Origin: Eledone cirrhosa
Taxonomy: Eukaryota
DNA: 64,000 nucleotides
Reading direction: 5' to 3'
NCBI GenBank assembly: GCA_964016885.1
Contig: CAXHJY010000604.1
Span: forward strand, 7,394-71,393
The notes beneath the pieces are model-generated. The model searched no databases, was not told where the DNA came from, and saw nothing but the letters and a program-made list of their open reading frames with translations. Each line of letters opens with the position of its first letter. Within the stretch, counting starts at the first letter, position 1. Position numbers and translations under genes: made by a program. Shown in pieces: positions 54,652 through 60,344 of the stretch.

Positions 54652-55145
54652 GTAAGAAAGTAATTTATTTCTATAGAAACAGGTTTCATTGAAATATAGC
54701 TGGAGAAGGGTTGGTGAATGAGGAGTATATAATTGGGAAAAACTAACCCAAGTAAATTAAACACAAGGGGCAGCTCTTGAAATAGCCAATCATTTCCTAG
54801 CGCCAATCATTTCAGAGCATGTACCTGGTTTGTTTTCTCATTGTACCACCTATACTACTTGGCAGAGTGGACTGGGTGCTTTTTGCTTGGCACCAGCATT
54901 ACCACTTTACTATTAAATGTTCTCAGTACATGCTATAAAGTGGTTGGCATTTAGACAGAAACCAAGTCAAAATCGGAGCATATAAGCAAAATATAGTCAC
55001 CTGACTGGTTTAGTTTCAGTATCTGATGGATCATCTGACCCATGCAAGCATGGGAAATAGACATTAAACAGTGGTGATGCTGATGGGTTTCCACAGTATA
55101 TAATTTATTTGTTATATGTTATAAATTCTGTTATTTCTTCTGTAG

Positions 55146-55293
55146 AAACCAACACTTCTGGGTAATCAAGTAGAGATGGCTATTACCAAACTTGTTGAAG
55201 CTAATGACACTTTGCTTCGGTTTGGAATTTGGTTTGAGTATCCTGATGCCAGAGTCAGAGTCCAGGACAAAATTCAGAAAAACAATGATTTAA
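55146..55293 (+). CDS. Tmod: Tropomodulin exon (KPTLLGNQVEMAITKLVEANDTLLRFGIWFEYPDARVRVQDKIQKNNDL)
   Basis: ttctgtag acceptor, A|gtaagt donor. Has LGN-VEM-I---N-TLLRFG--F---R and N-D motifs. Confidence 0.96.
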
Positions 55294-55374
55294 GTAAGTA
55301 TTTGTTATTGTTTTTATTATGTCACATCTTTGTTTTTTTTTTCATAAGAGAAATAATAAGAAGACAGTTGAGGG

Positions 55375-55595
55375 TTAACTCTTTTGTGGCCATATTTCTA
55401 ATGAAATACATTGTATTTCATTTATAACATATCTTGACTAAAAATTCATCATCATTGTCATCTAACATCTATTTTCCACACTATATATCAAATTATATTG
55501 GAAGGTTTTGATTTAGATAGGAACCCTTTAAAACTAGTGGCATGGTTTGATAGAACCAGAGACGGTTTTAGGTGGATTAGTATCAAAAGGGTTAA
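55375..55595. mobile_element. Second piggyBac-type MITE family (TTAACCCTTT..AAAGGGTTAA); copies also ~33675-34155, 35320-35971, 37575-, 48404-48620, 48865-49104
   Basis: TTAA-flanked CCCTTT/AAAGGG termini and a shared interior (atatttctaatgaaatac..catagaaccag..ggtatcaaaagggttaa). Confidence 0.72.
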
Positions 55596-56664
55596 GGTAT
55601 ATCACTACGAAAATTGTATTAAAGTTGATTACCACACTTTGACTCATGTAGTCGATTTAATCTGTCCATTCTGTTTAACATCACTACCTAGTAGTAGCTT
55701 GTAGATTTAATCTGTCACCCAGTTTAACACCAGCACCTAGCCCTTGGCTGGTAGACTTAATCTGTCACCTACCATTCTGTTGCAAGTATTTGAACCAGGT
55801 CTCTGGTTTGAGGATACCTCCCATCTTTTCAGGAGCAGTGAAAAGGGTCATAGGCATTACCTTTCCTTCCTTTCCCTGATTAAATAGTGAAGAAAAAACA
55901 AACTCCTATTCTAGTTGAGACATTCTATCTATTTAAATATTGTTTCTATAATCACAGTTTGGTTGATATGGAGAAATATATTTAAATCTAAACTTTCTAA
56001 CTACCAATTTGTGAAATTATGAATTTTCAAATGTATTCAACCCACTCCTTTCAGTGAGAGAAAAATCTTTAAAATACTATTAGTCACATAAACTGACATT
56101 TTTTTCAGCTGGGCAGAGTTGAAAAGGCTTTGTTAATTATTTTTATATTTTTATAAATGTTAAAGTAAAGTGAAAGTGTGCAGTCTAGTGTTTAGGGTGT
56201 TGGTTTCACAGTTATAAGGTCATGAGTTTGATATGAGTTAAGTGATGCATGGCTCTTCATTTCACATTGCTCCTATCCACTCAATTGAAAACAAAATGTG
56301 TGCCAGTAGTTTGCCTTAGGATGGACTGACATCTCAGGCAAGGAAAGTAGGGCGTCATGTATACTCAGTTGCTTAATGCTACATGAAGCTGGAATAATCT
56401 CCAGCCTGATGAGCCTCTAGATTCAAGTAACATTAGTAGTATAAATTTTTTTATTCTAGGGGTTTATGTCAACCTTAAACTATAGTGTAAGATACTTGCC
56501 GAAGATTCCACATATTGGTACCAAACCTAGAGTCTCATGATTGCAAAAGTGAACTTTTTAACTATGTGGCCATTTTGCATCATGTTTACAAATAAATCTC
56601 TTATTAATCCAACAATAAATATCGTGTTTTTTAAATAATATTTTACCTATTGTCTTTTTTACAG

Positions 56665-56711
56665 TCCGCCAAGCTCGTAAAGACAAGAATGACAGTGCTG
56701 GTGACTCCTGA
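56665..56711 (+). CDS. Tmod: Tropomodulin terminal coding exon (IRQARKDKNDSAGDS*)
   Basis: ttttttacag acceptor in phase 1 completes the basic C-terminal helix. TGA at 56709-56711. The summed CDS is 1089 nt from ATG 26782 (362 aa) or 1062 nt from ATG 38590 (353 aa). Confidence 0.88.
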
Positions 56712-57409
56712 ATTCTTTAATCTAGCAGTAGTATCCTGGCTAAGTTCAGGTTAACACTCTCCCTTTCATTGTCTTCTGTTGCTGCATTTAAGGTTTCCAC
56801 CTCCTCCTTTTCTGATGGCCCTTGGTGTATTCTATGTTTATTGCCAAAAATATTAATATATATATATACCGCTATGTTTTAACTGTGGTGGCCTACCTAC
56901 CTATCTATCTATCAAGTGTTGTCTGCTCTCCAACAATGATAAGGATGGCTGATGTCTGAACTGGACAGTTTACTAAACACAGTAGAGATAATTAACACCA
57001 TTGTCATTACTACTACTACAACACTACCAACAAAGCATAACAACTATGTTGTATGATGGTGTTACTGCTCGGCCGTTTCCCTTCAATTTCTTGGCCGGAG
57101 TGTTTTCTCACCTTCCCTTCTTAAACTCTGTTTGAAGAGACATTTTCATCATCAGAAAAAAAGCTTGGAAAAATAACAAAAAAAAAAAAAACCCCCCCAC
57201 ACCTCTATCCAAATCTCTCTTGTTAAAATGAAAATCAACCCAAGCCACAACCAAATAAAAAAAAAATGAAAAAAAAAGAAAAGATGATTTTTACCATTTA
57301 TTTACAATTTGAAAATTATTATTAAAAAAATTATAAAAGCTTGATCATAAAAGTGGCAAGCTGTATAGAACTGTTTCGATATTTGTCTGTACCCAGTACT
57401 TTTAAAGTC

Positions 57410-57415
57410 AATAAA
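57410..57415 (+). promoter_or_regulatory. Candidate tropomodulin polyadenylation signal
   Basis: AATAAA ~700 nt after the stop codon. Alternative AATAAA at 57254 and 57648. Confidence 0.45.
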
Positions 57416-57437
57416 ACCGTATATATATATATGCATG

Positions 57438-57486
<49 letters not shown>

Positions 57487-57660
57487 TATTATACATATTC
57501 TAGGTGACCGGCTTTTTATTATTTTCATAGTCACATAGAGTGACACTATGTTTCAGCTTTGCATTGCTTGCACACACACACACACACACACACACACGTA
57601 TATATACATATATATCACATAAGAAATGGAGAATCAGTGTTGCGACGAATAAAATTTATT

Positions 57661-57756
57661 AGACATATTACAATCGTTTCTCTGGCAACCAGCTCGAGGC
57701 ACGATCGATGTAATGATCGAACCTGACTCTATATCGCAAGGTCGTCAGATATGTCT
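57661..57756 (-). ncRNA. Minimal type I hammerhead ribozyme (Penelope-like element type)
   Basis: The minus strand reads agacauau-CUGACGA-[61 nt stem II]-GAAAC-GAUU-GUA-auaugucu-AAUAAA. Stem I is a perfect 8 bp, the core boxes are intact, and stem III is a 2-bp mini-stem. Confidence 0.8.
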
Positions 57757-57848
57757 CGATTCTACGAAGCAGAGTTTCCAAATCTGTAAAAGCATCGAGT
57801 GCTCAAACGGCCTACCGCTTACGGACGCTTTAAGCATCCCACCAATTA

Positions 57849-57881
<33 letters not shown>

Positions 57882-58023
57882 ATATATGATTATGGCTTCA
57901 TATGAATGAAACAGTTCTAGTCTTGTAGAAGATATTTCTATATATAATAAAGATACCTATACTCTACCACTGTATTGAGTACCTTTTTTAATTGAGGTTA
58001 CCCTCCTTGACACCACTTGTGAA

Positions 58024-58058
<35 letters not shown>

Positions 58059-58282
58059 AAATAGGGGGCCCTGGTGATCAGGCTTAAACTGATGGTCAAA
58101 TTTAAACTTATTTTCTTTATTATTTTAAGTTTCAGGATTCAGTCTTTTCTGAAATGTTTTTTAATATTAAGAAAATTCTATCTATTCTGGTATTAGTTAA
58201 GTTACAAAACAATGATTTTTAAAGATGATGATGACAATATACATTTTTAATGTAGAAATGTGTGTATACATGAATATATATA

Positions 58283-58329
<47 letters not shown>

Positions 58330-58453
58330 CATATATGTGTGTGTATACACGTGCACATTATATAATCTCAACATATTCAATAGGATGTTATGTTCATGTG
58401 CCTTTTCATTCAGAATGTTATGTGTATGCATGTTTATAAATATGTATACATTG

Positions 58454-58516
<63 letters not shown>

Positions 58517-58779
58517 CTTTTAGTTGTTCCAACCCATACATATATATATATACACACACATGCACAAATGTATACTTATGCATATATATAGCTGTACACA
58601 TATACTCACACGCATACACAACCTAGCTAAACTATGTGAAGCTACATGTATCATGTAAATATGTTGGCTTTGCTAGTAAACCCATAGCTACATTAAACTA
58701 AAGCTAGTTGATATTGCTTGCTTCATTCTTTATATATGATGCAACTGACGAGATGACAGCAAGTTTTTCATTCCATTTA

Positions 58780-60344
<1,565 letters not shown>

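What the first reader, a model, noticed from the sequence alone, without database searches (positions are those of the whole stretch)
57661..57756. Hammerhead ribozyme antisense to the tropomodulin 3' end
Seen: the minus strand has a perfect 8-bp stem I (agacauau/auaugucu), CUGACGA, a 61-nt stem II whose base pairs 7/9 (ccuugcgau/guugccaga) with an inner ucgau/aucga hairpin, then GAAAC-GAUU-GUA, and AAUAAA right after. The segment is CpG-rich and sits between (TA)n tracts. Known: this is the minimal type I hammerhead of Penelope-like element terminal repeats, where stem-loop III is palindromic and cleavage is thought to be dimeric. Here ACGAUUGU is one transition away from the palindrome ACGAUCGU. 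Inference: this is an orphan ribozyme cassette with an unusually long stem II. It could cleave or terminate antisense transcripts running into tropomodulin, and the adjacent AATAAAATTTATT gives a poly(A) signal on both strands. The C.A mismatch at the first stem II pair may cripple it.
Basis: partly seen in the sequence, partly recalled or inferred. Interest (0 to 1): 0.8.

Follow-up and report, generated by a model that had tools for sequence, protein, structure and literature searches.

The report
Long-armed hammerhead in dead Penelope-like copy
This hammerhead self-cutting RNA motif is real, but it is the broken-off end of a very common jumping gene (a Hydra-clade Penelope-like element) that landed behind the tropomodulin gene and is likely inert there; the one unusual point is a second arm more than twice as long as in the published relatives.

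Summary
The motif is there as described (0 of 300 shuffles give it). It is not an orphan cassette. It is the 3' end of a ~4.8-kb Hydra-clade Penelope-like element (PLE) with DKT, CxCX5C, a C-terminal GIY-YIG and (TA)n targets. The genome holds 1,188 exact matches to a strict pattern (control 0). The window copy is a 172-bp 5'-truncated end fused to an inverted 64-bp tail, a usual PLE insertion shape. Three sister families (74-80% identical) keep the catalytic core and show compensatory changes in stem I, helix II and the self-complementary helix III, which fits dimeric cleavage in the parent RNA (not assayed). The C.A 'defect' is family-wide, and 15 of 25 published Hydra elements have a mismatch at that position. 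The window copy has no dimer partner on its contig and is predicted to misfold. One run that behaves as RNA covers it, most likely as the tropomodulin long 3' UTR, which is the non-ribozyme strand. Hydra PLEs with hammerheads, one from an octopus, are published (Craig 2021). What seems undescribed is helix II: 61-62 nt here and 92 nt in a younger Hydra family, against 12-26 nt published. Rfam misses it.

The parts
57661..57756 (-). Type I hammerhead motif (stem I 8 bp, CUGACGA, 61-nt helix II, GAAAC-GAUU-GUA; predicted cut 57669/57668)
   Evidence: covariation across sister families
57681..57741 (-). Long helix II, one irregular hairpin of about 21 pairs; first position unpaired family-wide
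57670..57677 (-). Helix III/loop 3 octamer ACGAUUGU, self-complementary at 8 of 8 positions with two G.U; predicted dimer interface
   Evidence: duplex -5.8 kcal/mol; 60 of 72 copies
57612..57783 (-). 5'-truncated 3' end (pLTR part) of a Hydra-clade PLE, without the tail
   Evidence: 92-94% identical to the 3' ends of longer copies L059 and L107
57783..57846 (+). Inverted copy of the element's tail; in tandem copies the tail runs on into the start of the ORF
57847..57887 (.). (TA)n target tract, right flank
57571..57611 (.). (CA)n/(TA)n left flank
57648..57660 (.). AATAAA on both strands; part of the element (A[A/T]TAAA follows stem I on the element strand in all three sister families), not host-derived
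55144..55293 (+). Tropomodulin penultimate exon
56665..57416 (+). Tropomodulin last exon (stop 56709-56711) and 3' UTR covered by contigs of run X1

Best explanation
The motif is the hammerhead of a Hydra-clade Penelope-like retroelement, carried here in a truncated, partly inverted copy in a (TA)n tract behind tropomodulin, where it is likely inert; in the parent RNA it is predicted to cut only as a dimer. Steps. (1) Shown: the parent unit is tail, then one ORF (RT, CxCX5C linker, GIY-YIG), then a ~1.9-kb 3' region, then the hammerhead, all on one strand and often in partial tandem. (2) Shown by covariation: stem I, helix II and the helix III octamer were kept while three families diverged. 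(3) Inferred from published PLE ribozymes: a tandem transcript carries two hammerheads whose octamers pair into one 8-bp helix III, allowing slow cleavage after GUA and release or circularisation of a unit-length RNA. (4) Shown: insertion ends cluster about 50 and about 135 nt past the predicted cut, not at it, so the template copied is inferred to be uncut or re-joined there. (5) Inferred: reverse transcription primed in (TA)n stopped early and inverted, giving the window copy, which has since decayed.
For: Pattern count 1,188 (581 forward + 607 reverse), control 0. All 30 fetched top copies are 87-100% identical and almost all are flanked by (TA)n. RT, EN and hammerhead are collinear on one strand in 9 of 14 long loci; a direct upstream hammerhead+tail lies 4.80 and 4.88 kb before the downstream one in 2 of 14; an inverted upstream hammerhead occurs in 6 of 14. 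Motifs in those 14 loci: DKT in 5 (2 more have DKP or DQT), CNCx5C in 9, VYRC..YIG in 7; Pfam GIY-YIG at E 0.004, below cut-off. These match the published Hydra diagnosis. Covariation on 32 sequences from 3 families: 96.7% of cells paired; 7 of 32 pairs with a change on both sides; structures slid by 1-3 columns pair only 26-42%. RNAalifold independently returns stems I, II and III. Of 116 alignment ends, 58 and 55 fall in the two end classes and 1 lies near the cut. No second family copy lies on the 71-kb contig. The window copy's active fold is 5.4-6.1 kcal/mol above its predicted minimum and helix II pair probability is 0.02. None of the 14 long copies has a stop-free stretch over 332 aa, against about 930 expected.
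Against: No cleavage was assayed. The covariation rests on three lineages, not 32 independent events, and 33 of 500 shuffles reach the observed number of two-sided pairs. Predicted misfolding is common in family A (median gap 4.15 kcal/mol, median helix II probability 0.075, n=50), unlike B (3.0; 0.80; n=23) and C (1.25; 0.96; n=16), so it weighs against family A as a whole as much as against this copy. Motif sets were selected for a near-intact core. Clade assignment is by motifs, with no tree. The RT piece had no informative Pfam hit and no hit among longer proteins; the Atlas gave RVT_1 only in 16-44% of members of neighbouring clusters. The copy's locus is present in a run that behaves as RNA, so it is transcribed on some strand, which contigs cannot show.
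Confidence: 0.86

Rival explanations
1. Same origin, but the hammerhead fold of these families works mainly as a structure (a binding or priming platform for the element's protein) and rarely cuts.
For: Insertion ends lie past the cut site, so templates span it. Helix II is long and conserved. Published PLE ribozymes cut poorly in vitro, and the authors leave other functions open. Naiads spread without canonical hammerheads.
Against: The core letters and the self-pairing octamer are kept, with a two-sided change, across families. That is what cleavage as a dimer needs. Circularisation after cutting also explains ends that span the site.
Confidence: 0.25
2. The copy has been co-opted to cut or terminate antisense transcripts running into tropomodulin.
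For: The core is intact, stem I is fully Watson-Crick in this copy, AAUAAA follows it, and the locus is present in run X1.
Against: 1,188 copies match the same core pattern, so an intact core is unremarkable. There is no partner in cis and a misfold is predicted. The contig end at 57670 in X1 also occurs in DNA-like run X2, so it is an assembly break and not a cut. Contig depth falls from 900 to 694 to 233 going away from the tropomodulin stop and continues beyond the element at 202 and 167, a weak hint of + strand read-through.
Confidence: 0.04
3. It is a non-autonomous retrozyme or SINE-like cassette of about 237 bp that spreads as a unit.
For: All 40 best hits to the window query share both ends. 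Animal retrozymes are reported to derive from PLE pLTRs.
Against: The junction between the two halves differs from copy to copy, and one half is the reverse complement of the parent's tail. That points to independent truncation-inversion events; the shared shape of the top hits follows from the query. No head-to-tail monomer arrays were seen among the fetched loci, though this was not searched genome-wide.
Confidence: 0.05
4. Chance motif.
For: No Rfam hit.
Against: 0 of 300 shuffles, covariation, and position at a PLE 3' end.
Confidence: 0.01

Closest known systems
Hydra-clade PLEs and their hammerheads (Craig et al. 2021, PMC8557442 / bioRxiv 10.1101/2021.04.23.441226; includes Hydra-1_Obim of Octopus bimaculoides)
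   Same: DKT, CxCX5C linker, C-terminal GIY-YIG without the two-cysteine CCHH motif, (TA)n targets, sense-strand type I hammerhead near the 3' end, short self-complementary helix III, and an open first position of helix II (15 of 25 listed elements).
   Different: The region between CUGANGA and GAAA is 61-63 nt here against 12-26 nt in the 25 listed elements (counted). The unit is about 4.8 kb with a ~1.9-kb 3' region, against 'generally <3 kb'. The tail is about 78 bp against 30-40 bp. The family's motifs are absent from that paper's supplement text (0 hits for 4 terms).
Minimal and palindromic-helix-III hammerheads of metazoan PLEs (Cervera and De la Pena 2014, PMC4209133; Lunse et al., cited through review PMC6765202, not read)
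   Same: Type I, located in the pLTR, palindromic helix III, thousands of solo copies from truncated elements, dimeric cleavage expected.
   Different: No G10.1-C11.1 pair. Helix II is about 21 pairs against 6-8. Stem I is 7-8 bp against 4-5.
Non-LTR retrozymes (bioRxiv 10.64898/2026.07.22.740005)
   Same: Type I hammerhead, PLE-derived, can sit in last exons or 3' UTRs.
   Different: Not a tandem array of non-coding monomers; this is a fragment of a protein-coding element.
Naiad PLEs (Craig et al. 2021)
   Same: (TA)n targets, tails, inverted truncated copies; some have 'HHR_half_core' halves 35-50 nt apart.
   Different: Naiads have an N-terminal endonuclease and DKA; here the endonuclease is C-terminal with DKT.

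Membership tests
Type I hammerhead ribozyme | Core CUGANGA, GAAA, UH | tested here: met
Type I hammerhead ribozyme | Stem I closes both ends, with covariation | tested here: met
   97.3% of cells paired; 3 of 7 pairs changed on both sides
Type I hammerhead ribozyme | Helix II | tested here: met
   21 pairs, 96.0% paired, 3 changed on both sides; predicted to be outcompeted in the window copy
Type I hammerhead ribozyme | Canonical G10.1-C11.1 pair | tested here: not met
   C.A, U-A, C.U, U.U or A.A; also absent in 15 of 25 published Hydra elements
Type I hammerhead ribozyme | Self-cleavage after UH | not testable with these tools
   needs a bench assay; contigs cannot show ends
Rfam hammerhead families | Score against the Rfam models | tested here: not met
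   no hit at E<=10
PLE dimeric hammerhead | Short self-complementary helix III | tested here: met
   ACGAUUGU, ACAUAUGU and ACAAUUGU all pair at 8 of 8 positions
PLE dimeric hammerhead | Two copies in one transcript | tested here: inconclusive
   met in parent tandems L110 and L118; not met for the window copy
Hydra-clade PLE | DKT in place of DKG | tested here: met
   5 of 14 long copies exact, 2 variants, 7 without a match
Hydra-clade PLE | CxCX5C linker | tested here: met
   9 of 14
Hydra-clade PLE | C-terminal GIY-YIG lacking the CCHH motif | tested here: met
   VYRC..YIG with one cysteine in 7 of 14, downstream of RT; Pfam E 0.004, below cut-off
Hydra-clade PLE | (TA)n insertion | tested here: met
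Hydra-clade PLE | pLTR tandems, inverted truncated copy, tail at one end | tested here: met
Hydra-clade PLE | Length generally under 3 kb (a description, not a strict diagnostic) | tested here: not met
   4.80 and 4.88 kb between tandem hammerheads
Hydra-clade PLE | No IFD; RT phylogeny groups with Hydra | not tested
   no reference Hydra proteins were available as tool inputs
Non-LTR retrozyme | Tandem non-coding monomers, each with a hammerhead | tested here: not met
   single copy on the contig; parent encodes RT-EN
Naiad PLE | N-terminal endonuclease, DKA | tested here: not met

The most novel reading that the evidence does not exclude
Hydra-clade PLEs in this genome have repeatedly grown helix II into a 60-110-nt selected hairpin (61-62 nt in three sister families, 92 nt in a young family, 86-114 nt in another family not yet tied to an ORF) that does a job of its own, such as gating dimer cleavage or binding the element's RT-endonuclease. 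Such ribozymes escape Rfam and the usual descriptors, so thousands per genome go uncounted, and some PLEs reported to lack hammerheads (Naiad 'half-core' cases) may carry this long-armed form.
Probability: 0.3. Interest if true: 0.55.

Novelty: new variant of a known kind. Interest (0 to 1): 0.27.

Why it matters
As a single locus it matters little: it is one worn copy among more than a thousand. The family-level result is a modest addition. It widens the known size range of helix II in PLE hammerheads, shows that standard searches miss these motifs, and offers young, 98-99% identical copies (family D) on which the open question of what PLE hammerheads do can be tested directly.

Tried and rejected
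Rfam scans of 56500-59000 and 57615-57845 gave only microsatellite-driven miRNA-type noise below the gathering scores. Naiad origin was my first guess from the (TA)n targets and was rejected on domain order and DKT. A fixed 237-bp non-autonomous unit with internal deletions was my reading after and was rejected once one half proved to be the inverted tail. The X1 contig end at 57670, next to the predicted cut, was rejected as evidence because a contig of X2 starts at the same base. No RNA holder was listed; X1 is treated as RNA only because it alone carries the GT..AG joint 55293-56665. The protein search with the RT piece among longer proteins found nothing in 2,351 candidates (weak evidence). 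A second tropomodulin locus that could show insertion polymorphism was not found; the 3' end is single-copy. The window reaches the contig end, so no downstream neighbour gene could be read. The dimer fold could not be scored because it is a pseudoknot for ViennaRNA; the unconstrained two-strand fold did not use the octamer. Family E could not be tied to an ORF in 25 loci plus one 9.9-kb stretch, so the idea that a long-armed hammerhead belongs to a Naiad was not shown. Lunse et al. was not held. Literature searches, 7 in all. None listed a paper on long-helix-II Hydra hammerheads, but subscription journals and Repbase/Dfam are not covered, and I read only parts of the Craig supplement.

Full report
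Observation. It is the only descriptor match in the window; 0 of 300 dinucleotide shuffles give a stem I of 8 bp or more. Rfam has no hammerhead hit. The neighbouring gene is tropomodulin on the + strand, with its stop at 56709-56711.

It is a dispersed repeat. A search of the 3.0-Gb genome with 57610-57846 gave 3,427 candidates, of which 40 were scored; the 30 fetched are 87-100% identical and almost all sit in (TA)n tracts. A strict pattern covering the core and inner stem I has 1,188 exact matches, and the reversed control has 0.

The parent. Walking inward from a longer copy led to 14 stretches of 9.9 kb, 7 chosen because RT and endonuclease hits lay together and 7 as top RT hits. In 9 of 14, RT, endonuclease and hammerhead are collinear on one strand. 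Two have a direct upstream hammerhead plus tail, 4.80 and 4.88 kb before the downstream one, and six have an inverted upstream hammerhead. DKT occurs in 5 of 14 (2 more have variants), CNCx5C in 9 and the GIY-YIG core with a single cysteine in 7; no copy has a stop-free stretch over 332 aa, against about 930 expected. These are the diagnostics of the Hydra clade. I built no tree, so the assignment rests on motifs. Support from databases was weak: Pfam GIY-YIG at E 0.004, no informative Pfam hit for the RT piece, no hit, and RVT_1 on 16-44% of members of Atlas neighbours.

The window copy. Bases 57612-57783 on the minus strand are the truncated 3' end without the tail, and 57783-57846 on the plus strand are the inverted tail. 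An inverted truncated copy and a tail at one end only are the published PLE insertion shape. In tandem copies the tail runs straight into the start of the ORF. Of 116 alignment ends at the 3' end of a reference copy, 58 fall about 50 nt and 55 about 135 nt or more past the predicted cut, and 1 lies near it (ends extend into the TA tracts). The integrated template therefore spans the cut site.

Selection on the fold. Two sister families, B and C, were found in flanks and fetched. They are 74-80% identical to A over the motif and share the tail, inversion and (TA)n architecture. Among 72 A, 27 B and 19 C motifs (selected with at most one mismatch per core half), stem I position 4 is G.U, A-U and G-C respectively; helix II position 5 is G-C, U-A and G-C; position 9 is U.G, U-A and A-U; and the helix III octamer is ACGAUUGU (60 of 72), ACAUAUGU (26 of 27) and ACAAUUGU (16 of 19). 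On 32 of these 118 sequences, 96.7% of cells pair and 7 of 32 pairs change on both sides, while slid controls pair 26-42%. RNAalifold finds the same three helices. This is three lineages, not 32 events, and 33 of 500 shuffles reach 7 such pairs. The first helix II position is open in all three families. In File S2 of Craig et al., 15 of 25 Hydra elements have U.U or U.C there. The C.A is therefore not a lesion of this copy.

Mechanism. Published PLE hammerheads with palindromic helix III cut poorly and as dimers, and are proposed to release or circularise element RNA. All three octamers here self-pair at 8 of 8 positions (-5.8 to -7.0 kcal/mol), and tandem parents supply two copies per transcript. 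I put dimeric cleavage in the parent at about 0.65 and a mainly structural role at about 0.25; neither was assayed. For the window copy there is no partner on the 71-kb contig, and its active fold lies 5.4-6.1 kcal/mol above the predicted minimum, rank 41 of 50 family A copies. Against reading too much into this, family A misfolds in silico generally (median gap 4.15 kcal/mol), unlike B and C.

Expression. No run was on record as RNA. Run X1 alone shows the spliced joint 55293-56665 at depth 900, so it behaves as RNA. Its contigs cover 56665-57198 (depth 900), 57289-57416 (694), 57670-57836 (233, no differences, across the copy's own inversion joint) and 57898-58020 (202 and 167), against at most 18 in the wholly intronic bins. 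Contigs give no strand, ends or true levels. The simplest reading is a long tropomodulin 3' UTR, which carries the reverse complement of the ribozyme. The break at 57670 recurs in X2 and is not a cut.

What is new. Hydra PLEs with hammerheads are published, one from Octopus bimaculoides. Their helix II region spans 12-26 nt; here it is 61-63 nt. Flanks hold further families with 11-115 nt. Family D (92 nt, ACACGUGU, GUC) is a young Hydra family with 98-99% identical copies, DKT and CNCx5C. Family E (86-114 nt, ACGAUCGU) was not tied to an ORF. Long helix II regions are not unprecedented in PLEs: two spike-moss elements in the same table have about 50 nt. Seven literature searches listed nothing on long-armed Hydra hammerheads, within the library's limits.

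Papers seen. Craig 2021 preprint: outline, passages, sections 6 and 11. PMC8557442: passages, supplement part 2 of 59 and term searches. PMC4209133: parts 1-2 of 4. bioRxiv 10.64898/2026.07.22.740005: parts 1-2 of 5. PMC6765202, PMC6155905, PMC6962438: passages. Lunse et al.: not seen.

Verdict. The motif is real and the kind is known. This copy is most likely a passenger. The long helix II is a modest new variant. Interest 0.27.

Noticed in passing
window 57889-58025 (+): A second (TA)n-flanked repeat end directly beside the element, with GAAAC at 57908 and GTA at 57925 but no CUGAUGA. Its 21-nt marker occurs in 18 of 222 fetched loci, and other copies carry a complete hammerhead with a 12-nt helix II. 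Probably another PLE family.
   Followed up: partly
L003:2071, L165-L189, L215-L218, L220-L221: Family D: young (98-99% identical) Hydra-clade PLE with a 92-nt helix II, ACACGUGU and GUC; usually an inverted hammerhead upstream of the ORF.
   Followed up: yes
L106:8133, L190-L214, L219, L114: Family E: hammerhead with 86-115-nt helix II, perfect ACGAUCGU palindrome and stem I up to 12 bp; no ORF linked.
   Followed up: partly
L218:1811-4144 (+): A 778-aa stop-free Hydra-type ORF (DKT, CNCRANRTC, GIY-YIG) of yet another family.
   Followed up: no
L014, L017, L020, L022, L026, L038, L070, L090, L108, L109, L110, L125, L136, L137: At least eight further hammerhead families in (TA)n-rich flanks, helix II 11-56 nt, several with an open first helix II position. 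PLE ends cluster in the same microsatellites.
   Followed up: partly
window 57410-57415 (+): AATAAA just before the first TA tract, where X1 contig depth falls from 694 to 233; a candidate main poly(A) signal of tropomodulin (weak hint).
   Followed up: no
window 59029-60342: A 1.3-kb (TA)n array of 657 units; the window ends at the end of a 71-kb unplaced contig.
   Followed up: no
family A/B/C, just after stem I: AATAAA (A, C) or ATTAAA (B) follows stem I on the element strand in most copies, about 45 nt before the tail-less end; it may be the element's own poly(A) signal or AT-rich chance.
   Followed up: partly
L114 (oriented minus, from 9899): A 562-aa intronless stretch resembling a cyclic nucleotide phosphodiesterase catalytic domain (name recalled from the HDLDH motif).
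   Followed up: no
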